DNA of 64,000 nucleotides from a virus: the IMG/VR virus record IMGVR_UViG_3300045988_143823. One strand, given 5' to 3'. The notes under the pieces are model-generated. The model saw nothing but the letters and a program-made list of their open reading frames with translations. It had not been told where the DNA came from and ran no database searches. Positions 3,983 through 43,379 of this stretch are shown in pieces. Every line of letters begins with the position of its first letter. Within the stretch, counting starts at the first letter, position 1. A program made the position numbers and the translations under genes.

Positions 3983-5728
3983 ATGGAATACCGCCTAAGA
4001 GCACCCGAGTTCCCGATATATACACCGGTAGAACAAGTGCTAGTAAATCGTGGAATACCCTACGATTAGATTAATCATTATTTAAACACTACTGATAATG
4101 ACATTTTAGACCCTCGGTTAATACCGCACTTAGATGAAGGTGCTAAAATGCTTATTAAACATATTTCACAAAATGACAAAGTTCTGATATAGGTAGATAG
4201 TGATTGTGATGGATATACTTCTGCCGCATTACTAATGAATTACCTATATTGTCTATTTCCCAGTTTTGTGAATAATAACATTTCTTATCGTGTCCATATG
4301 GGAAAACAGCACGGCATCATTCCAGATACAATTCCGGAAGATATTAAATTAGTAATTGCTCCAGATTCAAGTTCAAATGATTATGAAGCACATGAATATT
4401 TAAATTTGAGTGGAGTTGACGTGCTGGTAATAGACCACCATGAAGCTGATCACATTTCTGAGTATGCTTGTATAATTAATAATTAGTTATGTGATTATCC
4501 CACTAAATCATTATCTGGTGTAGCAATGGTCTGGAAATTTTGTTGCTATATTGATATGTTATTAAAGACTGACCATGCGTAGAAGTTTTTAGATTTAGTG
4601 GCTCTTGGATTGGTGGCTGACATGATGGATGTGCGAGATTTTGAAACAAGAAGATTAATAGATAAAGGACTTCAACAAATCCGCAATCCTTACTTCAGAG
4701 GTGCGATTGATAAAGACCAATTTCATTTTACAAATGAGATTACACCTATTGGAGTAGCTTTTTATATTGCTCCATTAATTAACGCGACAACTCGCGTCGG
4801 AACGCAAGAAGAAAAGCTCATGCTATTTGAATCAATGCTTGATTTTCGGGGATACGAACTTGTCCCATCAACGAAACGTGGATGTAAAGGTCAAGCAGAG
4901 ACGAGAGTAGAACAAGCTTGTCGAAATTGTACCAATATTAAAAGTAGACAAACCAAAATTCGAGACAATAGCTTGGAAAGAATTGAATAGATAATCGTAA
5001 ATCAAAATTTATTGAGTAATAAAATCTTAATCGTTCAATTAGATGATTTGATTACTGACCGCAACCTAACTGGATTAATAGCAAATCAATTAATGAGTGA
5101 ATATCAAAGACCTGTTTTAATCTTAAATAAAATTGAAAATGAAGATGGTACAATAACTTGGGAAGGGTCTGGTAGAGGATACGACAAATCTCGATTGAAA
5201 GATTTTAGAGGATTTTTAGAAAATAATAAATACGTTATGTATGCTGAAGGTCATGCTAATGCATTTGGTATTGGCATTAAAGATGAAGATATTAGCGCAT
5301 TTATTGCATCTACAAATTCTGCTCTAGATGGTTTTGATTTCACCCCAATCTATAATGTAGATTTTATCTACAAATCAGATGAGCTGACTCCTGATGAAGT
5401 TATTGACATCGCAGGAATGAAAAGCTTATGGGGCCAAGGAGTAGAAGAAGCTGAAATTGCTGTAGAAGGTATTAAAGTCCACAAGGACAATATACGTATT
5501 CTATCGCCAGATAAAAATCCTACTCTAAAGATAATGTTGCCTAACGGCATCAATTTTATGAAGTTTAGGTCGTCTGAAGAGGAATATGATAAACTATATT
5601 CTGAATTAGGTTATGTGACAATTAATATCGTTGGTGAATGCGAACGAAATATTTGGAATAATAAAATTAGTCCTCAAGTTATGATTAAAGATTACGAAAT
5701 TGTAGATAGGGCAAATTATTATTTTTAA
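3983..5728 (+). CDS. recJ: RecJ-like single-strand DNA exonuclease (DHH/DHHA1), 5 in-frame TAG codons
   Basis: RBS AAAGGAGGGTG. Contiguous in-frame translation gives DHH motif I (VDSDCDGYTSAALL), motif III (DHHEADH), and the LDLVALGLVAD motif. The three ORF-track fragments (4235, 4598, 5012) are all in the same frame and separated only by TAG. Confidence 0.85.
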
Positions 5729-6908: not shown

Positions 6909-8105
6909 ATGATTTTAACAAATAAACAAGAACAAGGATTAAAAATAGCAGTAGAACGATATAAAAATAAAGAACGATATACAGTAATAGCAGGTTATGC
7001 TGGAAGTGGAAAATCAACTCTAATTAAATTTATTATCTCTGCTTTGGGAGTAAATCCAGAAGAAGAAGTTTGTTATGTAGCATTTACTGGTAAAGCAGCT
7101 ACAGTTCTCTAGACTAAAGGTTGCCCAAATGCAACTACTGCTCATTAGTTATTATATAAAGCGCGAATTACACCCAATGGAACATATAAATTTTTTCCAA
7201 GACCAAGAGAAGAGATAGTACACTATAAAGTAATTGTAGTAGACGAAGTTTCAATGCTTCCTAAAGCTATGTGGGAATTGCTCTTATCTCATGGTATCTA
7301 TATCTTAGCTACTGGAGATCCCGGTCAATTACCACCGATAGTTGATGAAGATAATAATCATGTGCTTGATAATCCACACATCTTCCTTGATGAAATTATG
7401 CGTCAAGCTCAAGATAGTGAAATTATTAGATTTTCAATGTGGATTCGTGATAACAAACCAATCTCTTCATATAAGGGTACTGAGGAACAAGTTTTAATTC
7501 GATTTAAATGGGATGAAATGCTTCCTTAGATGTATAATTGGGCAGACCAAATTATTTGCTCAACAAATGAAAAACGAAATGATATTAATCGTATAGTCCG
7601 AACTCAAAAAGGATATGACCCAGACCGGCCTTGTATTGGAGATAAATTAATTGGATTACATAACCAATGGGATTTTATATCTTCTAATCATACATGGGCG
7701 TTAACTAATGGGACTATTGGAACATTAGAAGATTTTTATGTTGAAGACATACGATTCCCATATTGGATTTATAAAAATCCTGTACCATTTATGTATGCTC
7801 AATTAAGACTTGATGATGATGATACATTTTGTGGAGTTCCTATTGATTATAATCAATTATTAACTGGCAAAAGAACATTTGAAGGAAAACAAATTTATCA
7901 AATTAAAAAGAATAAAAATTGTCCTGACCCTCCATTTGATTTTTCATATGCCTATGCTATTACTTGCTGGAAGGCTCAAGGTAGTGAATATAATAAAGTA
8001 TTAGGATTTGAAGAAGCTCCACCCTATGATAGAGAAACTCATAAAAAATATTTATATACCTTAGCCACAAGAGCTAAAGAGAGGCTGGTATTAATTAGGA
8101 AATGA
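6909..8105 (+). CDS. Dda/RecD-like SF1 DNA helicase, 3 in-frame TAG codons
   Basis: Walker A AGYAGSGKST, Walker B VVDEVSML, and a helicase C-terminal region. ORFs 6909, 7254 and 7530 are in one frame joined by TAGs at 7110, 7146 and 7527. Confidence 0.8.
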
Positions 8106-11700: not shown

Positions 11701-12723
11701 GCAAATCGTCCATATATATCAGTGAAAGATTTTTATTATCGCATTAAGCCAAGTAAGCAAGCAATGATTTCATTGATTAAAAGCGGTGCATTTGATGAAA
11801 TGATGGACCGTAAAGATTTAATGATTTGGTATATTTGGGAAACGTGTGATAAAAAATCTCGTTTAACATTACAAAATTTAGCAACTCTAATTCGTTATAA
11901 TTTATTACCAGAAGATAAAGATGAATATGTAATGGCAAGACGAGTTTATGAATTTAATAGATATTTAAAAGCTGTCTGTAAAGATGGTAATATCTATAAA
12001 GTTGACGAACGAGCGATTAATTTCTTAATTGAAATTGGTTGTGATGATTTAATTGGTAGTTGTTATTTATTAGATTCTAAGGCTTGGGATAAAGTATATC
12101 AAAAATATATGGATATATTCCGAACTTGGATTGCAGAAAATAAAGATGTTATTTTAAATAAATTAAATAATAAAATATTTAAAGAAGATTGGGATAAATA
12201 TGCATCTAAATCTATTTCAGCGTGGGAAATGGAAGTCTTATGTTTCTATTATCATGAGCATGAATTAGCCCATGTAAATAATAGTAAATATGGATTTGTT
12301 GATTTCTTCCATCTGCCAGAAGAGCCTATTGTTGATAAAACATTTTCTAAAGGTAATAAAACAATTACGATGTATAAATTACATAAGATTTGCGGAACTT
12401 GTATTGCTAAAAATAAAACTAAATCTACAGTTACATTACTTACCACTTCTGGAGTTGTCGAGGTTAAATTTAGAAAAGAATATTTCTCATTATTTGATAA
12501 GTAGATTTCAGAAAAACAAATTGATGGTACTAAAAAAGTAATGGAAAAAAGCTGGTTTAATCGTGGTAATATGATTGCTGTTCAAGGCATTCGTCAAGGC
12601 GATAATTTTATAGCAAAAAAGTATGCTAGTTCTGGCGGTCACCAGTTGTATAAAATTGATAAAATTTTAGATAATGGTGATATTGAATTAAAAGATGAAA
12701 GATACAATGGAGGAGCTAATTAA
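8770..12723 (+). CDS. dnaE: DNA polymerase III alpha subunit (DnaE-type, N-terminal PHP domain), 1317 codons with one in-frame TAG at 12502
   Basis: PHP motif HNHTHYS...ITDHE, PolIII alpha core motifs, and a C-terminal OB-fold region encoded after the TAG in the same frame; ends TAA. Confidence 0.9.
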
Positions 12724-13319
12724 TGTATAATATATTAGCATTAATTGGTGAAGCGGGGAGTGGTAAGGATACCATTCTCCGTAAACTAATTGATGATACA
12801 AAACATTATTATAATGGTAAATTACCTCTACATGAAATTATAAGTTATACTTCAAGACCTCCAAGAGAAAAAGAAGTGGATGGTATTAACTACCATTTTA
12901 TCTCAGCAGAAAAATTTGCTGAAATGATTTTATAGAATCAAATGTTTGAAGCTACTGTTTTTAATGAATGGTGCTATGGCACAGGAATTGAGTCAGTCAA
13001 AGAAGGCGCTATCAATGTAGGAGTATTTAATCCAGAAGGCGCAGAGATTTTATTACATGATAAACGAGTAAATTTAATTATCGTTTATATTCACGCAGAT
13101 GATAAAATTCGATTAATTAGATAGTTAAATCGAGAAGCTAACCCAGATATTGATGAAATTATTCGTCGATATAAAACAGATAAACTCGATTTTGAAGATG
13201 CTGATGATTTATGTAATTGGTTATATACAAATAATACTCCTGCGGAATTAGAATATATATATAAAGATTTAGCATTATTCCTGTCTCGGTGGCCGGAGCA
13301 TCTGGACACAACTTATTAA
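12723..13319 (+). CDS. gmk: guanylate kinase-like nucleoside monophosphate kinase, 2 in-frame TAG codons
   Basis: P-loop GEAGSGKDT and the guanylate kinase signature YTSRPPREKEVDGINYHF; three same-frame fragments joined by TAG at 12933 and 13122. Confidence 0.7.
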
Positions 13320-13391: not shown

Positions 13392-15662
13392 ATGTTTTAT
13401 ATAATTAAACGTAATGGCGATGTAATGCCATTTAACAAACAAAAAATTATTGATGCTATTACTAAAGCATTTATTGCTGTAGATAAAAATATTTTTGAAT
13501 CAGATAGTATTAATAGTATCGCTGATGAAGTAGAATATAGAGCGAGTCATTTCCCCGATGGAAGTGTTAATGTTGAAGACATCCAAAATTGGATTGAAGA
13601 AGCATTAATGGCATCAGAGCGTCCTGATATTGCTCGTGCTTATATTCGCTACAGATATAAAAAAGAAGTCGCTCGCACTCATTCAACTGAATTTATTGCA
13701 GCGATTGGTGAAAAAATTCGTGGAGCTAATATTCAGAATCAAAACGCTAATGTCGATGAAGCATCATTTGGTGGGCGTATGGGTGAAGCCAATAGTCTCT
13801 TAATGAAGCAATATGCTCTTGATTATATCGTATCTCCTCGCACAAAACGCAATCATGAAGAGAATATGATTTATACTCATGACCTTGACCATTATGCTGT
13901 GGGTGACCATAATTGTTTATCAATTCCATTTGACGATTTGCTTGCTAATGGATTTAATACTCGTCAAACAGATGTACGTCCAGCAGGTTCAGTAAATACA
14001 GCATTCCAATTAGTTGCAGTTATTTTCCAATTACAATCTCTTCAATAGTTTGGTGGAGTGAGTGCTACTCATCTTGATTGGACTATGGTTCCCTATGTTA
14101 AAAAAAGTTTTAGAAAACATTTTAAAGCATATTTAACTGATGTTGATGATTATAGTGAAGGTATGGCTCTACAAATTATGAGTGATTGTGAGCCTATTGA
14201 AATTTCTAATAAAGAATTGCAAAATCAATTTGGTCATCAAAATGCTTATAATTATGCTCTGAAACAGACAGAAAAAGAAATCCATCAAGCGGTTGAAGGC
14301 ATGTATCATAATTTAAATACTCTTCAAAGTCGTAGCGGTAATCAACTTCCATTTACTTCTATTAACTATGGAACTTGCACTCTTCCAGAAGGAAGAATGA
14401 TTACAAAAGCTCTATTGGAAGTGTCTCTTGAAGGATTAGGTAAATTACATAAAACTTCTATTTTTCCTTGTGGAATTTTCCAATGTATGAAGAGTGTTAA
14501 TAGAGAACCAGGTGACCCGAATTATGATTTATTTAAACTTGCGTTAAAATCTACTGCTAAAAGATTATATCCTAATTATGCGAATGTTGATTGGTCTGGA
14601 AATGCTGGCTATGATATTAATGACCCACGCACCTATTTTAGCACAATGGGATGCCGAACCGCCAATGGATATGATATTAACGGTTTAGGTCAATTAAAAG
14701 ATGGCCGTGGAAATATTTGTCCAGTAACCATTATTATGCCTACATTAGCTATGATAGCAAAAACTAAGGTAAATAATCTTCTTGTTTTTAAAGTATTAGA
14801 TGAAGATAGCGAAGTAAAAATTAATGAATATATAAGAACATTTATGGATTTACTTGATGAAAAAATCCATGAAGCAAAAGATCAATTAATTGAGCGTTTT
14901 GATTGGATTTGTTCTCAAAGCCCGGCTTCAGCCAAATTCATGTATGAAAATAATTTGATGGCAGGCTATATTCCAGAAGAAGGAATTAGAAGCGCGCTTA
15001 AACATGGAACACTGGCTCTAGGTCAGTTAGGACTAGCAGAAACTCTACAAATTCTTATTGGCGTTGACCACACTACTCCAGAGGGAATGGAATTAGCAAA
15101 AAGAATTGAATCCTTATTTAAACAGCGTTGCGCGGAATTTAAGGAACAATATAAATTAAACTTCGGTGTTTATTATACTCCCGCGGAAAATCTCTGCTAT
15201 ACTGCAATGAAGAAATTTAAGGCTAAGTATGGCGAAATTCCTAATGTAAGTGATAAAGAATTTTTTACTAATTCAATTCATGTTCCTGTATGGAAAGAAA
15301 TGAGTCCATTTGACAAAATTGATATTGAGAGTCAATTGACTGGATATAGTAATGCCGGTTGTATTACTTATGTTGAGTTAGATTCTACAGTATCTAATAA
15401 TTTAACTGCGCTTGAACAAATTGTAAATTATGCTATGGATAAAGATATTCCTTATTTTGCTGTAAATGTTCCTAATGACACTTGTCTCAAATGCGGATAT
15501 ACTGGTGAATTCAATGATAAATGTCCTGAATGTGGTAGTAAAGAAATCCAGCAACTTCGTCGTGTGACCGGCTATTTAACTGGTAATTATAAAACCGCGT
15601 TTAATTTAGGAAAGCAAGATGAAGTTGAACATCGAGTCAAACACGTAGGAGTGATGGAATGA
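13392..15662 (+). CDS. nrdD: anaerobic ribonucleoside-triphosphate reductase NrdD (class III RNR), one in-frame TAG at 14046
   Basis: N-terminal ATP-cone, C-terminal zinc-ribbon CLKCGY...CPECG, and a glycyl-radical-like RVTGY C-terminus; ORFs 13392 and 14058 are in the same frame. Confidence 0.9.
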
Positions 15663-16153
15663 GATACGCAGGAATAATTAAAAATGATATTGCTGGAGCT
15701 CCTGGAGTGTGTGTCTCATTTTTCACTCAAGGATGTGCCAGACATTGTGAGGGCTGTTAGAATCCAGAAACTTGGGATTTTAACGGCGGAAAAGAATTTA
15801 CCACAGATACATTAGATGATATAGTAAATGCTCTTACTGCTAATGGTATACATCGTGATTTTTGTATTATGGGTGGAGAGCCCCTTGCTCCAGAAAATCT
15901 ATTCCTTGTAAATTTAATTATTGAACATATTAAAGAAGCTCTTCCCAAAACAAAAATTTTTTTATGGACTGGATATACAATGGATGAATTGGCTATGCGC
16001 AGAGAGCCACATCTAAAAAATATTGTTGATAATATTGATTGTATTATTGATGGCCCATTTAAAATTGAACAACGAGATATTACCTTACCTATGCGTGGCT
16101 CACGCAATCAAAAAGTTTATTACGCTCCATTTGACTTATGGGAAAAAATATGA
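15659..16153 (+). CDS. nrdG: anaerobic RNR activating protein NrdG (radical SAM), one in-frame TAG directly after the CxxxCxxC motif
   Basis: ATG overlaps the nrdD TGA; motif GCARHCEGC-TAG-NPETW matches the NrdG signature GC..C.GC[HYQ]N..TW. Confidence 0.85.
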
Positions 16154-22301: not shown

Positions 22302-25300
22302 TTAAAATACTTTAATCCATACACGCCCATTAACTTTAACTTTTCCGGTCCCCCATTCTTCGTAATCAGGAACTGCTGAAATTGTACCAATCGCACAATA
22401 ACCTTTATTTTTATATTCTTCATCAGTCATAATAGAAACTGTTCCATTAGGACCAGAACATACTGGACGCCCAATATTCTTTTTAAATTCTTCATGAGAT
22501 TCATATGGATAAGCAAGAACACGTCCACTTACCGCTATTGGAGTTTTTGCCTATTCAGTTTCACCAATGGCAAAACCAAATGTATCAGATGTGATATTCG
22601 CGCCTGGCATCATGCGCTCAGTTGAAGTAATAAGAGTATCGTCACCCACTTCAATCACGCATTTACCTGATTCAATAGTATCTCCTTCACGGAATTCAGC
22701 ATAGTCATTCCATACTGCACCCCAAAGTTTATTTCCTCGTAAAACTCCAGTTCGAGTATTAATAGTCATTGTCATGCCAGCATTAGTTGAAGAACATCCA
22801 TCAACAAAACCAATACTCTACCAAGATTTAAAAATTAAATTGGCTTTTCCAGTAGTCCCTAAAATACTACCATCTGCATCTCCATTTCCAACATACATTC
22901 CATTATTTCCACCGGCTAATCTATGACAAATCATTGCTCCAGTATTAGTAGCAGTTGATGTAGTGGCGGGCAAAGAACAATTAATACTTCCATTCATAGT
23001 TCCGCCAGATAATTTTAAATAATTAGTATCAATCTATAAACCATTTATATCTCCCAAAGTTTTACTAGCACTATCAGCATTACCATGAAAATAAACATTA
23101 GTACCATCACTTTGAACTATCCACTATGTTTTAATACAATCCCATAATCCATATAACTATGCGCCACCATTATCGCGAGATAATTCGATATAACCAGTTG
23201 AGCCATTATTTACTCGGAACCCCTATCCAGCCTTATCAACAGCCAATTGACCAGTCATTGTATCTCCGGTTTTTTTGACATAATTAGAATCATGATTGTG
23301 TGAACTTGCTGCTGCTCCAATATCTGATAAAACTTGAGCTGCTGTGCGCTTATAAATCCAACCATAACCATCAATAGTAGCAAAATCTCCAGCTTTATTT
23401 CCAGCATTAGTAGTTTTTAACCACGTGCCTTCAATATAACCATTAATGCCAATACTAGAAGAACCTACTTTTAATCCAGTAGTATTAATTTGAGCAACTT
23501 CAGATACATTAGCATAAGCGCCATTATTTCCACCTGAATAGGTTTTAAATGAAATTTTATTTCCTTCATAATTTGTAGTTGTAGTAGCAGGTAAATAAAT
23601 TTCATTCACATTCATTTGATTGAAATGACCACGACTAGCTTTAAATGCGCAACCAATATTCTCCGCTGTATTTTCAATGTCTGGGCAATAATCAGGATGA
23701 GTAAATTTAGCTTCTCCTTGATTTTCAATACTACCATTTGTTTTTAATAATCCGGTCATTGTATCGCCAGATTTTTTTACATACAAACTATCATGGTTAT
23801 GATTTCCAGCTGCTACTCCTAATTCATTTAAAGTCCAACTTACATTAGAACTACCATCTACAGTTTTTTTAGCTGTTCCAATAGTAAATGTTCTTGGTGT
23901 TTTCCATTTATCAGCTGTGTCAGCATTACCTTTAAATTGAGTAGCTTTAACATTACCATTTACTTCTAATTTCTCTGTTGGCTAAGTAATTCCAATACCT
24001 ACATTACCAGAGCCATTTGCATTAGCATTTAATACTAATGGCTTAGTCTTATCACCATTTCCGTCGCCAACAGTAGAGACATATAAATCAACATAATCAG
24101 TACCATTAGGAACATTTACAGTGCTTGCGTTAAACTAAGCACTTCCACTATTAGTTTTTAAATCAAAACCTTTAGAGAAATGGGTTTTATCATTTAATGT
24201 TTTTTCTCCAGCAAACGTTTGAGTTCCAGTAGATACAACACCGGATTGACTAGCTGAAGCATCTCTTACTGTTTTTTTAGTTGCAGTAATTTTACCCTAA
24301 GTATCCTATGATACTGTATCAATAAATGAAATATCTTCATTAGACGCCGCAGGACTAGGTACTGCTGTTTGAATCTTTTTATATACCTTATCATGATTAT
24401 GATTGCCAAGCGCAACTGAAGTCGCTCCAGTACCAGTTGGTATAGTAAATTTTAATTCTCCAGCATTATTAACTGATTTAGCTGTATATGTTAATCCACT
24501 CCAACTACCAGAAGTATGATGGCTACTCTATTCCCAATTACCATTTTCAGCAAGGAATCTTTTAGTTGTATTAGTAGTATCAAATGTCGGGCCTTTAGTA
24601 ATTTTTCCGTCGGCATCTGAGTATACAATAGAATTAGTTTGTACTACACCAGCCTCATTTGTTAAATAACCATCACTACTGATATTGCCGTGAATATGAG
24701 GTTTTAATGCATATGAAGTAGAACTTCCTAAATCAACCCAATTTCCATCTATATCATATAAATATTCTTTTTTATCTCCAGTGCAAATAACAACATTACC
24801 AGCTACAGCTGTGACAGTAGTTCCATCAATAAGAGTTACTTGAGAACTGGTTGGCTTTGTAGCTACACGTCCAATATATACTAATGCACCAGAAATTTTT
24901 AAATCTGCCGCGTTAACATCGATTGTTCTAACCGCGGAGCCATCATAACTGCCTTTTGGAGTACCACCTACACTAATACTTAAGGCATGCTCAACTTTTC
25001 TTGCAATAGTAGCAGTCTTTGCATTACCATTAATATCTCTATCTAATGTTTGCCCAGTGACAATGGGTATTCCGTTTTTAAAATAAACTGGAGCGTTTTC
25101 GCTACCAGCATTGGTATTTAATTTATCAGCGCTTGTTGCAGGACCTCCCGCAGAAGAGGAACCTGCATAATCATGAGTATGGCCACTATTTGATTTACCG
25201 CTTAATAATGTATCAGTTTCTGTAATAGTATATACAGGTAATGGAATATCTTTATCTGTAGTCTAATTCGCAGTAAATGTTTCATTTACCTTGACTGGCA

Positions 25301-27485
25301 TTTTGCCAACCTTAATTGTTAATTTACCATTTCCAATAGTAGGAGCTGAAGGCAGAGCAATTGAAACCTCATCATTAATTGCTGTATTAACATGCCCCTA
25401 TTTATCAATAGTAATACGAGGAATATTAAGGGTTAATGTTTTGCCAAACTCACCAACTAATGATTTATTTGCATTACTTGTAGTAGTAATAGAAGAGACA
25501 TTATCTGCCATAGAAGGACCTTTATCGGCATGAGTGGCTTTATAGCTAACTGTATTTATGCCACCAGTTCCTTCTAATTTAATTAGCGCATCTTCTTTTG
25601 AATTAGAAGTATCAACATTGGCTGTAATCTAATGAGTGTGGCCAGTATCAGATTTACCATCTAATGCGGCTTGTAATTTATTAATATCAGCAATTTTATG
25701 TTTATGCCCTGTATCAGATTTACTATTTAATGTTTTTTGTAAATTTGTAATATCAGAAATTTCATGATTATGTAATTTAGCAGCCTTATCATCTAATGTT
25801 TTTTGTAAATTTGTAATATCAGAAATTTCATGATTATGTAATTTAGCAGCCTTATCATCTAATGTTTTTTGTAAATCTATAATATTAGAAATAGTATGAG
25901 TGTGACCAGTATTAGATTTATTATCTAATGCAGTTTGTAATCCATCAGTATCTGCAATTGTATGTTTATGATCAACATTTGATTTGTCGGCTAATTTTTC
26001 TGTTAATGTTTTCCAATTCCCAGAGCTATCTTTAAATTTAATATCAGATGTTAAATATAAATTTTGCCATGGATTTGATGTATTACCTAAATCTATTGAT
26101 ATATTTAAAGGCTCTTTAGAATTATTAATTGGTGATAATGATGCACCATTAAAATCTACTGCCTATTTATCATTAACTAGTTTAGTATGAGTATGATTTG
26201 CTACAGCTAAATCGTTAAATGATTTACCACTATCTTTAATAGTTCTACCTTTATTTCCGCTAAAAATAGCGATATGCCCATCAGTAGAACTTTCATCTGT
26301 ATTAATTACTGCTCCATCAATATTAGTTTGAACAATAGTCCAATCTCCTGCGCTATGAGTAGTTCCATCTTTAATACAAATAATTAAATCGCCAATTTCA
26401 CAAACTTCACCATTGCCAAGGTATTTACCATTATTACCACCTTTAATATCATAAACGCGATAAGTTTCACCCGCGTTATGTTTGGCTGGTAATTCATGAA
26501 TAGTAGCAGCTGCATCTCCACCGATAGTACCTTTAAATACCATAGCATCATTAGTGGCTAATAAATTATTTAATTTCTTATCAATATCTGATTTTATATA
26601 AAAATTATTTAATGACCAATCATGTACTGCGTCACCCCGTGCAGCAGCATATTGGTATAAATTGTTTCCATAATTTTCCCCGGCTTCACCAGCTTGTAAA
26701 ATTACATGTCGACTAGCTTTATAAGAATTATCACCATCATAGTTAATATATAAATTATCTTTTTCACAAGCCCCGTCATCTGTTGGCTCTGATATACCAT
26801 AAATACCACGAGTCACTAAACCCGCATTTTGAGCAGTTCCACCAAATACTGCCCCCTACTATAATGTAAGTTGATTAGAAATTATAGTATTTGTTTTATT
26901 AGTACCAAGGATATTAGCAGCATCGCCTTTAAAAATATGAGTACCACCTATTACAACATTTCCTTCAAATGATGCGCTACCATTCATATTTAAAAGAATA
27001 TTATTGTTTATATTAATACCCCAATTATTTACTAATGATTCTTCACCAGTATTTATAATTTTAATACCAGTGCCAGCTCCTTTATTATCAATAATTAGAG
27101 CCGAGCCTTCATCATTATTTTCAATTAAAACTTCATCTTTACTTCCTGTTTCAACATTAGGAATTACTAATGTCCCATCTTTATAACCAATACTACCATA
27201 TTTTAATTCAATTAAATTTTTAGTATTGTCAGCTACTTTGAATGCTAAAATAGGATAAGTTTCTGTATCTTCAATTTTAGTAGCCTTAATCCAATCAGTG
27301 CTTAAAGCACTAAGAGGAATACGATTATCTCCAATTACAGCTGGAGATGCATTAGTACCATCACCATCAATATCAATGTAAAATTTACCATCATCTGATG
27401 TAAAATATGCAAAACCTTCTTTTGCATATGGTACATTTGTCATTAAATTTTTTGACAAACCTTTACTTATTTTAAATAATGCCAT
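22302..27485 (-). CDS. giant tail-fibre/receptor-binding protein (about 1727 codons) with roughly 20-30 in-frame TAG codons
   Basis: RBS GAAGGGAG then ATG at 27485. ORFs 26859, 26163, 23223 and 22551 are all in one frame. Every fragment boundary checked in this gene is TAG. The protein carries repeated SGDTMTG tail-fibre motifs, an HxH 22-aa repeat array and a C-terminal domain paralogous to gene 28457..29326. It ends at a TAA at 22302. Confidence 0.6.
25600..25990 (-). repeat. tandem array of at least 6 copies of a 66-nt repeat encoding a 22-aa HxH unit (AKLHNHEISDITNLQKTLDDKA and variants)
   Basis: Two identical 66-nt copies at 25741 and 25807 plus diverged flanking copies, in-frame in the fibre gene; resembles phage tail-fibre His-x-His repeats. 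Confidence 0.7.
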
Positions 27486-27645
27486 TAATTTGTAAACTCC
27501 CTTCTCTGAAAAAAAGTTTATAAAAATATTTCTATTAATTTGTAAAAATTTGAATTATATTATTATTTTAATTAGGCCATTTATTTATAATATTAAAATT
27601 TAAATTTTTACAAATTAATAGAAAACGAGTGAAAGGAGATTAATT

Positions 27646-28416
27646 ATGGCAGAAAGAAAAGTTGTAGATTTAAATAATTTAAAAACTTTTTATATTAAAT
27701 TAAAAGATATTTTTGTTCCTAAATTAGAAGGAAAAAATTATCTCACTAGTTCTACTGGAGATGAAGGATATACTAAAGATGAAATAGATATTAAAATAAA
27801 TAATATATCACCATCTGGGCCATCTGATAATATTAATCTTAATTGGCAAAATTAGTTTGAAGATGTTGTTTATAATTCTACATCAGCAGATTTTGATAAT
27901 TATACCTATTATTATTTAGATAACGGGATATATAAAATTGTTACTTATGATTAGATTATGACTTGGGTAAACACTCCAAAAGATACGACATAGCCAGCTT
28001 CTGTTGATAATAATATTTTAGAAGATCAAAAATTTTATTTTAATAAAATTTTAAGCCATACTACTCCAGCTTATGGTATTGGAAATACTATTAGTACTTA
28101 TCTTACTGGAGCTGGGGCTCAACAAGTTACTAATATCGCGCAAAAGACTCATTATACTTCATATAATCGTGTAAATAATCAAATTGTTAATAAATCATAT
28201 CCAGCATATTTTTCTTATTATAAAAAAGACACAACAGGAAATTTTATTAAAATAACTTAGACGGAAGCTAAAACATTAGGTAATACTAATAAAATAGAGA
28301 TTTTTGTAAAAAATTTAACTCCAGAAAATATTGAAAACTTAATTAAATCATCTGATATTCAAACAATTATTGACAACCGAATTAAAACATTAGTTAAATC
28401 AGATTCATTAAAATAA
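27646..28416 (+). CDS. hypothetical protein (about 256 aa), 4 in-frame TAG codons, on the opposite strand within the fibre cluster
   Basis: RBS GAAAGGAGATTAATT then ATG; the frame continues through 4 TAGs to a TAA at 28414; followed by a terminator. Confidence 0.45.
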
Positions 28417-28420
28417 AATA

Positions 28421-28459
28421 AAAAGGCAGATAACATAATTTGTTATCTGCCTTTTTTTA
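28421..28459. terminator. bidirectional hairpin terminator (aaggcagataaca...tgttatctgcctt)
   Basis: 13-bp stem plus a T-run between convergent genes. Confidence 0.65.
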
Positions 28460-29326
28460 TTTTATTTTAATCCAAATTCGATTATTGATTTGAATTTTAT
28501 CAGTACCCCATTCTTTATACTCAGGAATTTCACTTACATAACCAATTATAGCATCAGGCCATTCTTTGATTTCTTCACGAGTCATTAATGATATAGTTCC
28601 ATTAGGTCCTGAGCAAACCGCCGCGCCAGCAGTAAATTTATATCTATCTTCATAAGGATAAGCTAATACTCGTCCACATACCGCAATAGGTGTTTGTGCT
28701 TTATTAGTTTCACCAATAGAAAAACCAAATGTATCTGAAATAATATTGCTACCCAGCTGTAAACGCTAAGTTGATAATTCTAAGTCTCCATACCCAGTTT
28801 CAACTACACACCGGCCAGGCTCTTTAATTAACGATTCACGATATTCAGCATAATCATTAAATACAGCACCACGAACTTTTTTAGCTACTAAAACTCCATT
28901 ATCACCGTTTTTTGTTTTACTACCATCGCCTAATACTAAATTCTATGATCGATCAAATCCTTTAATTAATACGCTCTATTTCAAAATATTATTTTCTTTA
29001 ATATTAAACATACCTGGAGTTAAATTATCATTTTGAGTTAAATTAGTTTCGGGGGAAAAACTTAATTCACCGGTAATAATATACTGCTTATTTAATACAT
29101 CATCATCAGTCGGATCTTCAATAATTAAGTAGGTTTTATTACCATCTGGAACAATTTTTACACTTCTTACATTCTAGATTTGTAATCGCGTACCATCTTT
29201 ATTCGGACGAAGACGAATGCCAGTTTTTTTACCTGCAACTGGATAAGCTTTTATATTAGCAAGCATTTTATTTAATGCTTCATTTTGTAAAATTATTGTA
29301 GACTCATAAGGTGAATTACTACTCAT
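28457..29326 (-). CDS. fibre-tip/receptor-binding-like protein (about 289 aa) paralogous to the C-terminus of the giant fibre; 4 in-frame TAG codons
   Basis: RBS AAAGGAGAA; shares GAVFNDYAEYRE, SDTFGFSIGET, VCSGPNGT and YPYE motifs with residues encoded at 22302-22800. Confidence 0.5.
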
Positions 29327-29404
29327 TTTTCGTGTTCTCCTTTCTCTCATAATTTTATATCTATTTATTATAGAAAATTATAATAAATCATTATTTATAT
29401 TTAC

Positions 29405-29445
29405 CCAAAAAAATAAAGGGAAGACTAATTTAAAGTCTTCCCTTT
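29405..29445. terminator. hairpin terminator (aaagggaagact...agtcttcccttt)
   Basis: 12-bp stem plus a T-run. Confidence 0.6.
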
Positions 29446-29514
29446 ATTTTTATTTTATTAAAAATTATCAATCCACTCTAAAGCAAATGTACCTTTCTAA
29501 TGTGCTTGTTCTAA

Positions 29515-30066
29515 ATCATGAATTGCCTAAATAAATGCTTTATCAAAAACAAATTCTTCCTGAGAAATATTATCTAAATCCCAATTTTGACCTTGCTCTA
29601 CAATTGCTTCAGCAACTAATGTATTTAATTCATACATTAAATGTCCTGCAGCATTAAGACTAAAGAATTTAATAGCAAATTTTACAGTACCAGCATATTT
29701 AGTGGCCGCATTCTGAATCACCCATGGCATAATAATTTTTTGATTTACATTATCAGTAGTAATATCCATATAAGGCACTACATAATAATAGGCTTCACCT
29801 TTTGCATTTTGAAATTGAATAATGCAACAAGTGTTAGATAAATCCATGCCATCAAAATATCGATCAAATGTAAAGTATAAAGTCTCAGCCGAATGGTCCT
29901 GAGAGACGATAATGAAGGACTTAGGCACTTTTATTTTACGTTCATTTAAATCGATAGGGATTAACTCTTCTTTAGGTGGAGTTGGAAGGAGAATGGCTTT
30001 GGAAGTTCGCATCTGTTTGTCGATAGACCAAAGCTTATTCTCATAATCTTGATAATTAGTAATCAT
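29515..30066 (-). CDS. hypothetical structural protein (183 aa), paralog of the N-terminal domain of gene 30096..32030; one in-frame TAG
   Basis: RBS AAAGGAGAATGAATAATC; MITNYQDY...QDHSAETLYFTFDRYFDGMDL parallels MITKYKDS...GDHLAETVFFSIDRYFDYMDL. Confidence 0.45.
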
Positions 30067-30095
30067 GATTATTCATTCTCCTTTCTCCTAATTTA

Positions 30096-32030
30096 TTACT
30101 TAATATTAATATAGAATGCATCACTATTTAGTGAATAGGCACTTCCATTATATTTATTAGTTACACGAATAAAATAATTACCTTCTTGATTACCAACCAT
30201 TGAAGAGGTAATTGTAGTATGTTTCCCACCTTCAATATCAGAAGAATTTAGTTCACAAACAAAAATGGGATTAGTGTCATCACTTTCTTCACCAGGTAAT
30301 TGGTATAGACTACAAATTACTTTATCACTATATACTTTTTCATTAATAGCGGTTAAAACATATTTAACATCAAATGATTTTTGAGTGTACTTATCTGTAA
30401 CTCCATCAGTAGATGCGTTTAGGTTAATCCAATATTGTCCACCTTGTTTACTTAAACCTAAAACAATACTATTCTCTTCAATTTTAGAAGCTAAAGGAGA
30501 AACGATATATTCTTTAGATTTAGTTTCGTCTAAAGTAGTTTGATTATTTAAAAATGTTTTAACTCCAACAATATATTTACCTTCTTCGCTAACAACAAAA
30601 CTATTATTTTCAGTAGAACGAATCCACTTTGAAGTATTAATAGGAGTTGTATTCCCATCTTTATACCAAGCATATTGAACTAAAGCCTTAGGTTCAACTC
30701 CTACAGCAGGAGCTTCATAAGCATCTGTATTATCATATCCAGAAGCAGTAGCAGTTAGAGTAACTTCATTGCCAGTTAAAAATGCCACAGAATCAGCTAC
30801 AGATAAATCAATATCATAACCTTCATCTTTTAAATCACTATTATTAGAAGTAATTGTAATTTCAGCAGGAGCATCGGGTTCAGGGCAAATTACCACTGGA
30901 GTATGCTCAAGAACACCTTGACCAATTTTCTTATTTTCTTTATCAAAAATAATTCCTTGAGCCTGAATATAATATTCACCGACACCACTTACTTCAATAG
31001 TGGCATAACGAGCATATAATTCACTCTTGTTTGGAATAGCAATCTCTAGATCATTCCAAGTTCTAACGTCTTCGCTAGAAGCAACCTTATAAACGCTGCC
31101 CTCTTTTATATAATAAGTGCCAGTAGGGTCTAAAGGAATACGTTTATCATTTTCATCTTTTTTAGAAACTAAAACATATTCATCTACTGGGTCATCTTCT
31201 CCAGCAGGAGTAGAATACTTAATGTCCGCCGCACCTGCTTGTGCGCGAGCATATAATTTTACAGGTACAGAAGATAATGTTTGAGAGTCGCCATTATCTA
31301 CCGCATTACCAGCTAAATTTATAGTCTATAAAGCTACTGTAGCGTCGGGGTCAGTGACCAAGCCATTGGTAAGCCATTTTAAATCATCAACTTTAGCTTC
31401 GCCTTCACCAAAACTGCTGTTTTGAAGCATATTTAGAATATCATCATTAACATTAATAACTGTAGGATTAATTAAAACTAATCCTTCTTTAATATTAATT
31501 GTTGAGATTAAAGTATTTAAACTATAGCTAATAACATTATCACGTTCAGCATAAAATTCAACTGCAAAACTTAAAGTACCACTTTTACCAGTTAAATCTT
31601 TTGCCACAGGCCAACCAAAAATAATTTTTCCAGGTTCAGCATCAACGCTCTTAGAGAAATTAACAGATTGACCAGAAACATCACCAATTTTCCAATTGAT
31701 ACGAATATTACAATTGTTTAAATCCATATAATCAAAATATCTATCAATACTAAAGAAAACAGTTTCAGCTAAATGATCTCCTTGAACTGATAAACCATTA
31801 GCAGTAAAATCAGAAGGAATTGTAATTTTGCGGCTATTAGCATCAATTTCAAACAAAGGCTCATCCAAAGGAAGTCTTAAAAACTTTTTATCTAACTCAC
31901 CAATTTCTTGTATATATCCGAAAAAGCTCTCAAGGTTATCAATTTGAATTTTACCATTACTAGCTTTGTCAATATCTTCATACAGTTTTTGATAAGCTAA
32001 TTTAACAGAGTCTTTATACTTTGTAATCAT
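30096..32030 (-). CDS. tail-associated structural protein (about 644 aa), one in-frame TAG at 31326
   Basis: RBS GAAAGGAAGG; ORFs 31326..32030 and 30096..30896 are one frame, with no TAA/TGA found across the gap on manual translation. Confidence 0.5.
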
Positions 32031-32059
32031 AGACTAGAAAACCTTCCTTTCTAAAATAA

Positions 32060-32096
32060 TTTTCCCTTATAGAGAGAAGAGAATTAATCTCTTCTC
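32060..32096. terminator. hairpin terminator (tagagagaagaga...tctcttctctcta)
   Basis: 13-bp stem plus a T-run. Confidence 0.55.
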
Positions 32097-32142
32097 TCTA
32101 TTTTTCAAAAAAGTTATATATTAGATAATTGGAACTACCCAA

Positions 32143-32358
32143 TTAAACTTCTTTCCACTAATCTAATTCGTCTTCTGGAATAACTACATTTTGAACAAAG
32201 TCTTTTCCATTTTTAGTAAGACGTTTATTATTATCAGCAAGTAATTGAAGTTTTCTAACATAATATATATCTTCAAGATGAATGGGAGAAAGAATCGTTC
32301 CATTAGTACCTAAATACTCATACATTACAATTTTAGTCATTTTCTTTTCTCCTTTCAT
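32143..32358 (-). CDS. small hypothetical protein, one in-frame TAG
   Basis: ATG overlaps the upstream gene's stop (ATGA); continues 4 codons past the TAG at 32158. Confidence 0.35.
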
Positions 32359-38300: not shown

Positions 38301-40517
38301 AATTTTATCATTTTCTACAACAAATCCATTTTCTTGAGTGTTTCTAACAACACTAGTTAGTACACCATTTAAATAAATATAAATTAAATTTTGAATTTTT
38401 TCTTTACTATATTTACATACAACAGATAAAGTAATAATTTTATTTTCTACATAAGATACGTTTACGGTATCAGTACCATTAGAGAAAAACGCATCCTGTG
38501 GTCCTAAACATAAACCAGTAACGGCTTTAGTATTACCAGAAGAGTAACTACCTATAACATTACTTAAATTAATTTGCTTAGCAATATGACTAAATTCTAA
38601 ATCATCATATTCCATTCTACGTTTATTACCATTTTTATCGACAAATTCAACTTCATAAGTTTTTAAATACCAAGCTAAAAATGCATCATAGTTGGTGTAT
38701 GTAGTATTAAATTTGCCAGTTTCTTCATCATAAAATGCTTTATATAATTTTTCATCATTTTTATAACGAGTAATAGTACGAATTAAATTTGAATAATCCT
38801 AAACATTACGAATTTTGAAAGTTAATTCAATACTATGAGACTGCTCAGTAGCTTGAGAGCCACTAGGATTTGAAAATACAGTGCGACCAATAGGAATAGA
38901 TAATTTAGCACCATTACTAATACGTAAACAAGTTTTATTATCTTCATCCGTAGTCCAACCATTATTATACCAATTAAAATTAGTAAAAGTCGCCGCACAA
39001 GGTTCAGCCCCTAGAGCTGTAGAAGAATTTACTAAAGTAGTGCGTTTAGCCAACGTTTCAGAATTAGAACGTCCACTACCTACTGTGTTTAATAAATAAG
39101 TTAAGAAGCCTTGCTTCTAAATACCAAAGTCTGTTCTTGTTGGGTCATTTACAACACGAATTTCAATTTTACGGGTAGTCTCACGCGCTCCATCACCACA
39201 AGTAATAGTGTAGTGATTAATTACATTTAATTCAGGATTAGCAATTTCAAAAATAGCAAATTTCTTAGAATCTGTAATTGTTTGAGGAGAATAAGAAAGT
39301 TCAATATTATTACGTTTAAAATGCACTACTGGGTTTTCAGCCTATGGGTCAAAAACACGGAAAGGAATTTGAATAGTGTCATAATTATAATATTCATCTT
39401 TATAGTCTCCCAACCAAATAATTGGAGGAGCTTGAGGGTCTAAACCATCATAAACAGCTACTTCAAAAATTAAAGGGTCAACTTCAATTCCTTTTTTGCC
39501 ATTAATTGATTGGAATAAACGAATCCAAACTTTATGATAACCATTAACTACAGGGATATATTGTGAAACATTAACAGTCTATAATGTAGCCGAATTAGCG
39601 GCTAAAGATACACTTAAAAATGGTTCATCTTCATTGTCAAAATAATATTCAACAATTTTATCCATAGCGCCATTAACATTACATTGTAATACTAATTTAC
39701 TAGGCTCGAAATAACTTAAATTAGAAAAACTACTTGATTCTTGTAATTCTAACTTAGAAGTTTTAAATGTTACTAAACGAGTAACTGTGCTTGGATGATT
39801 GGTTTGACTAGCCACTAATACTAATCTTGAAGAAGCATCGTCTTTAGCCAATTTACCAAATTCAAAAGCATATTTCTCGCCATCAGGCACTTGGAATGTT
39901 CCTGAATTATATTGGTTGTAATTGGTGCCATCATCAGTATATTCTAACTTCCAATTAATTGTTAGAATAGAGTCATAAGAATTACCCTTTTTATTTTTAG
40001 CTGATGTGGCGACAAATGTTATTTCTTGAGAACGTCCATTAATTAAGTTAACAGTAGGTAATGAGTCTACAGTTAATTCAATATCAGAAGCTAATGAGCT
40101 AGGGTCATCTCCTCCCCCTCCACCAGCAACAGTTAAACGACGACATAGCACATTTTGAAATGCTCGCTGAACTTTTATTACACGATAAAAACAATTATCA
40201 CCTAAATTGATAATTAAATCATCTTCTTCGGGATACTCTCCGCCTTCAATAGCTCCGATTGGAATATTGATTTCATCTTCTAGTTTTTCAGCATCAGTCG
40301 GAGTATAATTGGCATAATAAATACCAGAATTACTTCCTGAGCCACCACCACTACCGCTTCCTAAAAGCTTTCGTGATACCATTGTACCATCAGCTTGAGT
40401 ATAGTCTATGAAAATTTTACCAGTATCAACTGCAAAATAAACATATCCATCATTAAAACCCATTAAATCTAATTTAGCTTCAGTACCACGAACAGGGATG
40501 AATCGTTTATTGCTCAT
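32355..40517 (-). CDS. giant virion/tail protein (about 2720 codons) with about 14 in-frame TAG codons; N-terminal fibre-anchor-like motif
   Basis: RBS AAAGGAGATACTTGC then ATG at 40517. Eight ORF-track fragments (39579, 39117, 38799, 37689, 36327, 34512, 33210, 32616) are all in one frame. The gaps at 36093-36326, 37176-37688, 38616-39578 and 32355-32615 were manually translated: they contain only TAG and no TAA/TGA. It ends at a TGA at 32355. Confidence 0.5.
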
Positions 40518-40569
40518 GCAAGTATCTCCTTTCTATCTTAAATTTTATATAAAACAAAATTATATATAA

Positions 40570-40602
40570 AAAAAATGGGAGAGGAATTTTCCTCTCCCAA
40601 AT
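40570..40602. terminator. hairpin terminator (tgggagagg-aatttt-cctctccca)
   Basis: 9-bp GC-rich stem preceded by an A-run. Confidence 0.55.
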
Positions 40603-43374: not shown

Positions 43375-43379
43375 GTTAT

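What the first reader, a model, noticed from the sequence alone, without database searches (positions are those of the whole stretch)
13392..16153. TAG falls at conserved positions in NrdD/NrdG, which constrains the decoded amino acid
In NrdG the TAG is the residue immediately after the third Cys of CxxxCxxC (GCARHCEGC-TAG-NPETW), a position that is H/Y/Q/F in known NrdG proteins. In RecJ motif I (KVLI-TAG-VDSDCDG) the equivalent position is V/Y/H in homologs. By precedent in phages the reassignment would be Gln, but these positions leave Tyr, His or others open.
Basis: inference. Interest (0 to 1): 0.6.

Follow-up and report, generated by a model that had tools for sequence, protein, structure and literature searches.

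The report
Phage reads TAG stop as glutamine
This gut phage uses the stop codon TAG as a sense codon, and comparison with about 150 related phage sequences shows it stands for glutamine, the reassignment already known from other gut phages (genetic code 15), so the finding is real but ordinary.

Summary
nrdD (13392-15662) and nrdG (15659-16153) each carry one in-frame TAG (14046-14048; 15758-15760), and my gene models hold 189 in-frame TAGs across the window.

I compared codons at these sites with those of about 150 related phage loci.
- NrdD site: relatives have only CAA, CAG or TAG.
- NrdG site: relatives have His, Gln or Phe, so it is uninformative and slightly favours His.
- RecJ motif I site: relatives have Gln, Ile, Leu, Val or Asn. 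Solved RecJ structures have Tyr or His.

A likelihood test over 167 informative TAG sites puts Gln first. Lys trails by 88 nats, His by 186 and Tyr by 331, and Gln won 5000 of 5000 bootstraps.

Three further results agree.
- TAG codons in relatives align with window Gln six times more often than with any other residue.
- TAG sites are exactly as conserved as CAA/CAG sites.
- TAG supplies 34% of Gln codons in late genes and 10% in replication genes.

A tRNA with anticodon CUA sits in a tRNA cluster about 39 kb upstream of the window in five close relatives. It has its own perfect sigma-70-type promoter. It is class I with G73, which makes a tRNA-Tyr origin unlikely.

This is a new member of the known TAG-to-Gln gut phages. 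Tyr and His are excluded.

The parts
13392..15662 (+). nrdD, the anaerobic ribonucleotide reductase large subunit (ATP-cone plus NRDD plus glycyl-radical domain), read through one TAG
   Evidence: Pfam PF13597 scores 485 bits over aa 118-751, with PF03477 and PF01228 also matched. The closest GenBank DNA is the nrdD of Thomasclavelia phage TR-TP1/TP2, 71.6% identical.
14046..14048 (+). TAG codon at NrdD aa 219 (LQSLQ-TAG-FGGVS)
   Evidence: Related loci have CAA 22, CAG 9 and TAG 14 at this codon, and nothing else. The residue is Gln in T4 NrdD (1h78) and 9d3x, and Met in 8p23. Among 99 scorable family representatives it is Gln 63, Met 23, Phe 5, His 3, Tyr 1.
15659..16153 (+). nrdG, the radical-SAM activase of NrdD, read through one TAG
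   Evidence: Pfam PF13353 scores 124.5 bits and PF04055 also matches.
15758..15760 (+). TAG codon at NrdG aa 34, directly after the third Cys of CxxxCxxC
   Evidence: Related loci have CAT 12, CAC 2 (His), CAA 10, CAG 7 (Gln), TTT 4 (Phe) and TAG 7. The top 120 homologs have His 100, Gln 10, Phe 9. The per-site likelihood puts His 0.73 nat above Gln, so the site is not discriminating.
3983..5728 (+). RecJ-like DHH exonuclease with five in-frame TAGs: 4067-4069, 4190-4192 (motif I), 4484-4486, 4580-4582 and 4988-4990
   Evidence: Pfam DHH and RecJ_OB match. At aa 70 relatives have TAG 26, CAA 6, Ile 2, Leu 2, Val 3, Asn 1. At aa 168 they have CAA 23, CAG 5, TAG 12. Solved RecJ structures have Tyr or His at aa 70.
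6909..8105 (+). RecD/PIF1-like helicase with three TAGs: 7110-7112, 7146-7148 and 7527-7529
   Evidence: Pfam AAA_30, PIF1 and UvrD_C_2 match. At aa 68 relatives have CAA 19, TAG 12, Lys 4, Arg 6 and others.
12502..12504 (+). TAG codon at aa 1245 of the DNA polymerase III alpha-like gene (8770-12723)
   Evidence: Relatives have CAA 28, CAG 19, AGA 3, CGA 1. Four contigs that are 99% identical to the window carry CAG here.
13122..13124 (+). TAG codon at aa 134 of the guanylate-kinase-like gene (12723-13319; second TAG at 12933-12935)
   Evidence: Relatives have CAA 26, CAG 10, TAG 10 by best HSP. A few divergent loci have Cys, Ser or Ala in the context alignment.
22302..64000 (-). Block of late (virion and tail) genes carrying 161 in-frame TAGs, up to 41 per gene. 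The last gene runs off the window end.
   Evidence: Gene models are. TAG makes up 34% of TAG+CAA+CAG here, against 10% in the replication genes. The frame stays open beyond base 64000 in L001.

Best explanation
The window comes from a gut phage of about 197 kb that uses genetic code 15: UAG is translated as glutamine.

Shown directly:
- In-frame TAGs interrupt essential, conserved genes.
- They occupy positions where relatives have CAA or CAG.
- Their substitution spectrum and degree of conservation match those of ordinary Gln codons.

Shown in five close relatives rather than in the window itself:
- The genome carries a tRNA with anticodon CUA in a cluster of at least 22 tRNAs, about 39 kb upstream of the window.
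- The tRNA is transcribed in the direction of the window's + strand from its own consensus sigma-70-type promoter.

Inferred:
- The tRNA is charged with Gln by host machinery and outcompetes release factor 1.
- TAG is scarce in replication genes and abundant in late genes. Full-length late proteins would therefore be made only once the suppressor has accumulated. This is the timing model proposed for other recoded phages (bioRxiv 10.1101/2021.08.26.457843).
For: - **Likelihood test.** I used empirical substitution tables built from the same alignments, over 167 TAG sites with sense-codon comparators. Gln ranks first. Lys is at -88 nats, Glu -114, His -186, Tyr -331, Trp -456. Gln won 5000 of 5000 bootstraps. 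Using only the most divergent comparator per site, Gln still leads by 65 nats. The same method assigns all 20 sense amino acids correctly.
- **Codon identity.** The commonest aligned sense codon is CAA (weight 36.6), which is two mutations from TAG. Mutational proximity therefore does not explain the signal.
- **Reverse test.** TAG codons in relatives align with window Gln in 3.7% of Gln pairs, against at most 0.6% for any other residue.
- **Conservation.** TAG sites align to TAG/CAA/CAG in 58.5% of comparisons. Real CAA/CAG sites do so in 57.8%.
- **Composition.** Counting TAG as Gln equalises Gln frequency between early and late genes (3.4% and 3.6% of codons). Without TAG the figures are 3.1% and 2.4%.
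- **Invariant sites.** NrdD 219 and RecJ 168 are exclusively Gln or TAG in relatives. PolIII 1245 and Gmk 134 are almost exclusively so.
- **Stop codons.** All 37 gene models end in TAA or TGA. No TAG site aligns with TAA or TGA.
- **Suppressor tRNA.** A tRNA(CUA) was found by ARAGORN in L184-L188 and by Rfam at 55 bits. A 12/12 TTGACA-17-TATAAT promoter lies 84 nt upstream of it.
- **Precedent.** TAG-to-Gln has been inferred for gut phage clades (bioRxiv 10.1101/2021.08.26.457843). It has been inferred for the distant relative phAss-1 (PMC10607447). It has been shown by proteomics for crAss-like phages (PMC9523058).
Against: - There is no proteomic evidence for this phage.
- The window holds no tRNA. 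The suppressor is seen only in contigs 96-100% identical to each other in that region, not in the window's own contig, which I could not fetch.
- The tRNA's isotype is not established. It has G73, G10, U35, A37 and an unpaired U1/U72, which fit tRNA-Gln. It also has C2-G71 and C3-G70 where E. coli tRNA-Gln has G-C, and A38 instead of U38. These comparisons to E. coli identity elements come from my own knowledge, not from a tool. A crude nearest-neighbour comparison with 192 phage tRNAs was uninformative.
- The NrdG site alone slightly prefers His.
- TAG sites align to gaps twice as often as sense codons do (6.4% against 3%).
- When the comparator is a sense codon, it is Gln in only 27% of cases. 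The remainder of the conservation is TAG aligned with TAG.
Confidence: 0.93

Rival explanations
1. TAG is decoded as His or Tyr, the alternatives the first reader left open on the basis of the NrdG and RecJ motif I positions.
For: - The NrdG position is His in 100 of the 120 best homologs.
- The per-site likelihood at NrdG puts His 0.73 nat above Gln.
- Solved RecJ structures have Tyr (8y30) or His (5f54, 1ir6) at the motif I position.
- TAT is one mutation from TAG and carries weight 7.4 among aligned codons.
Against: - Over all sites His is at -186 nats and Tyr at -331 nats relative to Gln.
- Phe, the usual partner of Tyr, is nearly absent at TAG sites.
- TAG codons in relatives align with window Tyr in 0.13% of pairs and with His in 0.24%, against 3.7% for Gln.
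- The NrdD, RecJ 168, PolIII and Gmk sites show no His or Tyr in relatives.
- The tRNA(CUA) is class I with G73. The tRNA-Tyr next to it is class II with a long variable arm and A73.
- tRNA-His would need C73 and G-1. That requirement is from my own knowledge.
Confidence: 0.01
2. TAG is decoded as Lys, or as a Lys-like residue such as pyrrolysine. Lys is the second-best fit.
For: - Lys is the runner-up in the likelihood test.
- AAA is the second most common aligned codon, with weight 17.7.
- ARAGORN labels CUA tRNAs 'tRNA-Pyl', but that label follows from the anticodon alone.
Against: - Lys is 88 nats worse than Gln.
- Lys is also the commonest substitute at genuine Gln sites (8%), so its presence is expected under Gln.
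- Sites that are invariant in relatives are CAA/CAG, never AAA/AAG.
- The tRNA is an ordinary cloverleaf scoring 55 bits on the general tRNA model. From my own knowledge, it lacks the short D-loop and 3-nt variable loop of tRNA-Pyl.
- No pyl genes were seen, though I did not search all parts of the genome.
Confidence: 0.02
3. TAG has two meanings. It stops translation early in infection, when host RF1 is unopposed, and codes for Gln later. Some TAGs would then act as conditional terminators rather than plain sense codons. This refines the main explanation rather than excluding it.
For: - TAG is three to four times more frequent among Gln codons in late genes (34%) than in replication genes (10%).
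- The host is probably a standard-code member of the Bacillota. The best bacterial homologs of a phage-borne transporter gene are from Lachnospiraceae, Clostridia and Bacilli.
- This model has been proposed in the literature (bioRxiv 10.1101/2021.08.26.457843).
Against: - The suppressor tRNA has a perfect host-type promoter. That suggests expression from the start of infection rather than a late switch.
- Replication genes needed early or in mid-infection also carry TAG: RecJ 5, helicase 3, NrdD 1, NrdG 1.
- No expression data exist.
Confidence: 0.3
4. The TAGs are not translated at all. The genes would be pseudogenes, or the TAGs would be assembly or sequencing errors.
For: None beyond the presence of stop codons under the standard code.
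Against: - The same TAGs recur in independently assembled contigs from several samples.
- Homology continues on both sides of all 189 sites.
- Only TAG is affected, never TAA or TGA.
- A matching suppressor tRNA is present.
Confidence: 0.003

Closest known systems
TAG-to-Gln (genetic code 15) gut phage clades: Lak, crAss-like, Jade, Sapphire, Agate and others (Borges et al., bioRxiv 10.1101/2021.08.26.457843; proteomic validation in crAss-like phages, PMC9523058)
   Same: - In-frame TAG aligns with Gln.
- TAG is enriched in structural and late genes and variable in replication genes.
- A suppressor tRNA(CUA) is encoded by the phage.
- The same family includes relatives that recode TGA to Trp.
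- The genome of about 197 kb falls within the mean sizes that paper lists for its large clades (210 +/- 35, 201 +/- 22 and 154 +/- 27 kb). The preprint text does not map sizes to clade names unambiguously.
   Different: - I did not establish which named clade this phage belongs to, because no terminase tree was built.
- No release factor or aminoacyl-tRNA synthetase gene was seen in the roughly 130 kb examined, unlike the 'code change module' of some Jade phages.
- The suppressor has its own consensus sigma-70-type promoter.
Phage phAss-1 (OQ749652, NCBI 'Caudoviricetes code 15 clade'; PMC10607447)
   Same: - It is a distant relative: 28% identity over 70% of the 936-aa late protein.
- It recodes TAG to Gln.
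- It has a large tRNA cluster upstream of the replication module, and it carries nrdD and nrdG.
- A sister genome has a TAG in nrdG (PMC10607447).
   Different: - phAss-1 is 136 kb and has three tRNA(CUA) genes, two of them directly upstream of nrdD. The window has only a hairpin at that place and no tRNA.
- Two phAss-1 suppressors have an anticodon arm nearly identical to that of its own tRNA-Trp. The suppressor here has a different arm, which suggests an independent origin.
E. coli supE (glnV44), the tRNA-Gln CUG-to-CUA amber suppressor (own knowledge)
   Same: - It is a class I tRNA with anticodon CUA and G73 that inserts Gln at UAG.
- It has a weak or unpaired 1-72 pair, plus G10, U35 and A37.
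   Different: - The acceptor stem here has C2-G71 and C3-G70 rather than G2-C71 and G3-C70. It has U1/U72 instead of U1-A72, and A38 instead of U38.
- The likely host is a member of the Bacillota. Many of these make Gln-tRNA by transamidation, so the charging route may differ. I did not test this.

Membership tests
Genetic code 15 (TAG to Gln) phage | In-frame TAG codons inside conserved, evidently functional genes | tested here: met
   There are 189 in-frame TAGs. Pfam profiles match across them. Homology continues on both sides of every site.
Genetic code 15 (TAG to Gln) phage | TAG aligns with Gln in homologs that use sense codons | tested here: met
   Gln is best by 88 nats over 167 sites, with 5000 of 5000 bootstraps. 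The reverse test agrees. The NrdD, RecJ 168, PolIII and Gmk sites are CAA/CAG in relatives.
Genetic code 15 (TAG to Gln) phage | TAG is not used as a terminator; genes end in TAA or TGA | tested here: inconclusive
   All 37 gene models end in TAA (28) or TGA (9). The models were built with TAG as sense, so this is partly circular. Independent support comes: no TAG site marks the end of homology, and none aligns with TAA or TGA.
Genetic code 15 (TAG to Gln) phage | Phage-encoded suppressor tRNA with anticodon CUA | tested here: met
   The window has none. One is present in five close relatives at the syntenic tRNA cluster about 39 kb upstream: L184 10542-10615 (-). ARAGORN found it, Rfam scores it at 55 bits, and a promoter precedes it. 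That the window's own genome carries it is inferred.
Genetic code 15 (TAG to Gln) phage | Recoded codon enriched in late, structural and lysis genes | tested here: met
   TAG/(TAG+CAA+CAG) is 0.34 in the late block and 0.10 in the replication genes.
Genetic code 15 (TAG to Gln) phage | Gln found at TAG positions in the proteins themselves | not testable with these tools
   This needs LC-MS/MS, as was done for crAss-like phages in PMC9523058.
tRNA-Gln-derived suppressor (supE-like) | tRNA-Gln identity set: G73, weak 1-72 pair, G2-C71, G3-C70, G10, U35, A37, U38 (E. coli GlnRS; own knowledge) | tested here: inconclusive
   G73, U1/U72 unpaired, G10, U35 and A37 are present. Pairs 2-71 and 3-70 are C-G, and position 38 is A. 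Nearest-neighbour similarity to 192 phage tRNAs gave no clear isotype. No isotype-specific models were available.
Class III (anaerobic) ribonucleotide reductase NrdD/NrdG pair | NrdD with ATP-cone, NRDD core and C-terminal glycyl-radical domain; an adjacent radical-SAM activase with CxxxCxxC | tested here: met
   PF03477, PF13597 and PF01228 match NrdD. PF13353 and PF04055 match NrdG, which overlaps the end of nrdD by 4 nt. PDB NrdD homologs match at E = 5e-32.

The most novel reading that the evidence does not exclude
The route by which the suppressor acquires Gln may be unusual.

- The tRNA(CUA) lacks the canonical GlnRS acceptor-stem pairs: it has C2-G71, C3-G70 and an unpaired U1/U72.
- The host is probably a member of the Bacillota, many of which lack GlnRS and make Gln-tRNA through a non-discriminating GluRS plus GatCAB.
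- The only ordinary tRNA-Gln(UUG) seen in the cluster is interrupted by a conserved 124-nt insertion in its anticodon loop, 0.9 kb from the suppressor.

The phage might therefore use a non-standard charging pathway. It might also regulate the balance between normal Gln decoding and UAG suppression through processing of the interrupted tRNA.
Probability: 0.12. Interest if true: 0.6.

Novelty: new member of a known kind. Interest (0 to 1): 0.25.

Why it matters
Knowing that TAG means Gln lets the genes of this roughly 197-kb phage lineage be called and annotated correctly. Under the standard code about a third of the coding sequence in the window is lost. The result adds another large phage family, probably infecting Bacillota, to those using code 15. 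That family also has TGA-to-Trp members, which makes it useful for studying how stop-codon reassignment arises and switches. It does not change current understanding: the reassignment, the late-gene bias and the suppressor tRNA all follow published precedent.

Tried and rejected
- **tRNA search in and near the window.** ARAGORN and Rfam (gathering and E-value thresholds) found nothing in the window. ARAGORN found no suppressor in about 30 kb upstream or 3 kb downstream in relatives. A 42-aa query was too short.\n- **MT835469.** This 176-kb record is too distant (25-37% identity) to inform TAG sites. It has four tRNAs and no suppressor.\n- **Isotype of the suppressor.** Global identity to 192 phage tRNAs was uninformative, with all isotypes at 0.63-0.77.\n- **Minimum-free-energy folding.** Folding the suppressor and the interrupted tRNA-Gln was not significant, with z-scores of -1.4 and -1.1. 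The covariance-model match is the relevant evidence.\n- **A flawed control.** The last analysis ('non-Gln comparators only') penalises any amino acid that occurs among the comparators. It is therefore biased towards Gln, and I do not use it.\n- **Circularity in protein homologs.** Close homologs in the protein database carry Gln at TAG positions because the database's gene caller already applied code 15 (for example P0001). I therefore relied on DNA-level codon comparisons.\n- **Alignment-based search.** The search for more relatives of the 2424-aa late protein added only three loci.
Full report
**1. What is there**

The window is 30% G+C phage DNA. Replication genes lie on the + strand (285-18891). 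A long block of late genes lies on the - strand (22302 to beyond 64000).

Under the standard code, stop-free frames of at least 100 codons cover 42 kb. With TAG read as sense they cover 68 kb. Reading TGA as sense gives no comparable gain in long frames. My gene models contain 189 in-frame TAGs.

The finding's coordinates hold two genes.
- nrdD is 13392-15662, with a TAG at 14046-14048 (aa 219).
- nrdG is 15659-16153, with a TAG at 15758-15760 (aa 34), directly after the third Cys of CxxxCxxC.

Pfam profiles match both proteins end to end across the TAGs. RecJ (3983-5728) has five TAGs, one of them in motif I at 4190-4192.

**2. Where the window comes from**

A TAG-free protein of the window, the DnaB-like helicase, is encoded identically on contigs of 98-200 kb (most 168-200 kb) assembled from several human-gut metagenomes. 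IMG/VR holds contigs up to 197,570 bp that are 95-100% identical over most of the window.

Four scans around the window returned about 150 related loci at 28-99% protein identity.

In GenBank the nearest records are distant.
- Phage phAss-1 (OQ749652), filed by NCBI under 'Caudoviricetes code 15 clade'.
- An unannotated 176-kb record (MT835469).
- Enterococcus phages.

The phAss-1 paper (PMC10607447) describes TAG-to-Gln recoding, three tRNA(CUA) genes, and a TAG in nrdG of a sister genome.

**3. Which amino acid: site by site**

I aligned the window proteins, with X at each TAG, to the DNA of all related loci using tblastn. I then read the codon opposite each TAG. Working at DNA level avoids a circularity. 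The protein database already translates these phages with TAG as Gln, as P0001 shows.

- **NrdD 219.** Relatives have CAA 22, CAG 9, TAG 14, and nothing else. This includes relatives at only 28-31% identity (Q-Y-G-G). The residue is Gln in T4 NrdD and in 9d3x, and Met in 8p23. Among 99 scorable representatives of the family it is Gln 63, Met 23, Phe 5, His 3, Tyr 1.
- **NrdG 34.** Relatives have His 14, Gln 17, Phe 4, TAG 7. The 120 best homologs have His 100, Gln 10, Phe 9. On its own the site slightly prefers His.
- **RecJ 70.** Relatives have TAG 26, Gln 6, Ile 2, Leu 2, Val 3, Asn 1. Solved RecJ structures have Tyr or His.
- **Other sites.** RecJ 168 is exclusively CAA/CAG or TAG in relatives. 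PolIII 1245 and Gmk 134 are almost exclusively so.

The NrdD site is not.

**4. Which amino acid: all sites**

For each candidate amino acid I computed the likelihood of the residues seen opposite the TAGs. Substitution tables were derived from the same alignments and stratified by identity. Each site was given weight 1.

- Over 167 informative sites Gln is best. Lys is at -88 nats, Glu -114, His -186, Tyr -331, Trp -456. Gln wins 5000 of 5000 bootstraps over sites.
- The result holds separately for the 20 early-gene sites and the 147 late-gene sites.
- It also holds when only the most divergent comparator per site is used (Gln leads by 65 nats).
- The same procedure classifies every one of the 20 sense amino acids correctly.

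Further results point the same way.
- The commonest aligned sense codon is CAA, two mutations from TAG, followed by AAA and GAA. Those are the usual replacements of Gln.
- TAG codons in relatives fall opposite window Gln in 3.7% of Gln pairs, against at most 0.6% for any other residue.
- TAG sites align with TAG/CAA/CAG in 58.5% of comparisons, and genuine Gln sites in 57.8%.
- Counting TAG as Gln makes Gln equally frequent in early and late genes, at 3.4% and 3.6% of codons.
- No TAG site aligns with TAA or TGA.
- TAG sites are evenly spread along the proteins, and gaps opposite them are uncommon at 6.4%.

**5. The suppressor tRNA**

The window has no tRNA. I walked upstream through the IMG/VR contigs and reached a tRNA cluster of at least 22 genes.

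The cluster contains a tRNA with anticodon CUA at L184 10542-10615 (-). That is about position 157.2 kb of contig IMGVR_UViG_3300045988_160359, roughly 39 kb upstream of window base 1. It is transcribed in the direction of the window's + strand.

- It is present in all five close relatives, which differ by one substitution between two sequence variants.
- It scores 55 bits on the Rfam tRNA model.
- A perfect TTGACA-17-TATAAT promoter lies 84 nt upstream.
- It is a 74-nt class I tRNA with a short variable loop, G73, G10, U35, A37 and an unpaired U1/U72.

The adjacent tRNA-Tyr(GUA) is class II with A73 and an unrelated acceptor stem. A tRNA-Tyr origin is therefore unlikely, and the tRNA-His hallmarks are absent.

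G73 and the open first pair fit tRNA-Gln. Pairs 2-71 and 3-70 are C-G rather than G-C, and a similarity comparison with 192 phage tRNAs gave no clear isotype. The tRNA is consistent with Gln but does not prove it. The proof of Gln rests on the codon comparisons.

**6. Mechanism**

Shown: TAG is a sense codon equivalent to CAA and CAG. It makes up 34% of Gln codons in late genes and 10% in replication genes. Close relatives encode a tRNA able to read it.

Inferred: host enzymes charge that tRNA with Gln. UAG suppression then gates or boosts late-protein synthesis, as proposed for other recoded phages (bioRxiv 10.1101/2021.08.26.457843). The host-type promoter of the suppressor and the TAGs in replication genes argue against a strictly late switch.

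The host is probably a member of the Bacillota. A transporter gene inside the tRNA cluster has its best bacterial homologs in Lachnospiraceae, Clostridia and Bacilli. nrdD is closest to that of a Thomasclavelia phage.

**7. Comparison with what is known, and verdict**

Every element has published precedent. Code 15 in gut phages, Gln assignment by alignment, late-gene bias, suppressor tRNAs and mixed TAG/TGA clades are in bioRxiv 10.1101/2021.08.26.457843. Proteomic proof for crAss-like phages is in PMC9523058. A distantly related code-15 lineage is in PMC10607447.

This phage is a new member of that kind. Interest is low to moderate.

The only unexplained points lie outside the window: the non-canonical acceptor stem of the suppressor, and an interrupted tRNA-Gln(UUG) beside it.

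Noticed in passing
L041-L043 and L151-L156 (relatives at 43-58% identity); for example NrdG 'NPET-TGA-D' opposite window 15659-16153: Some distant relatives have no in-frame TAG and carry in-frame TGA instead. Of 83 such TGA codons, 51 align with window Trp. The same phage family therefore holds both TAG-to-Gln and TGA-to-Trp members.
   Followed up: partly
L184:11531-11724 (-), and the same place in L185-L187: A tRNA-Gln(UUG)-like gene is interrupted by a 124-nt insertion in the anticodon loop, 0.9 kb from the suppressor tRNA. It is conserved in four relatives. Rfam scores it at 43 bits across the insertion. The insertion is too short for a typical group I intron, and no Rfam family matches it.
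   Followed up: partly
L184:10699-10727 (-): A perfect sigma-70-type promoter (TTGACA, 17 nt, TATAAT; 12 of 12) lies 84 nt upstream of the suppressor tRNA and is conserved in relatives.
   Followed up: yes
L072, L086, L067, L068, L094, L091, L152, L083, L069; opposite window nrdD aa 420-429 or 597: In several relatives nrdD matches in two pieces 0.8-1 kb apart. This points to an insertion (intron, intein or homing endonuclease) that the window copy lacks. Thomasclavelia phage TR-TP1 has an HNH endonuclease annotated within its nrdD match.
   Followed up: no
window 8102-8707: This 201-aa gene of unknown function (no Pfam match, three TAGs) is absent from four contigs that are otherwise 98-99% identical (L007-L010). 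L006 carries an allele only 57% identical. It is a variable or mobile gene between the helicase and the polymerase.
   Followed up: no
window 60480-64000 (-); L001:2-3700: The last gene of the window, a coiled-coil-rich and probably tape-measure-like protein, continues beyond base 64000. In L001 the frame stays open for more than 1233 further codons with 36 TAGs.
   Followed up: partly
L016:12442-12610 (phAss-1 62442-62610): Two of phAss-1's three tRNA(CUA) genes sit directly upstream of its nrdD. Their anticodon arm (GGTCTCTAAAACC) nearly matches that of its own tRNA-Trp (GGTCTCCAAAACC). They look Trp-derived and unrelated to the suppressor of the window's family, which suggests suppressors arose independently. 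One of the two is 91 nt long, with an enlarged variable region.
   Followed up: partly
window 13337-13381: A 15-bp perfect inverted repeat (CACTAAATATAGTGG ... CCACTATATTTAGTG) lies between the guanylate-kinase-like gene and nrdD, just before the nrdD ribosome-binding site. It occupies the place where phAss-1 has its suppressor tRNAs (read by eye).
   Followed up: no
L184:15170-16219 (-); L018:3-545 (+): Two host-like genes sit in the early region of relatives. One is a sodium:dicarboxylate symporter (PF00375, 271 bits) inside the tRNA cluster, with its best bacterial homologs in Lachnospiraceae, Clostridia and Bacilli. The other looked by eye like a flotillin/SPFH-type protein; I ran no domain search on it.
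   Followed up: partly
L162 against the window at 45-66 kb: The family is mosaic. Contig IMGVR_UViG_3300045988_160359 is 98-100% identical to the window proteins in the replication region and in the 2720-aa late gene. It is only 75% identical in the 2424-aa late protein.
   Followed up: no
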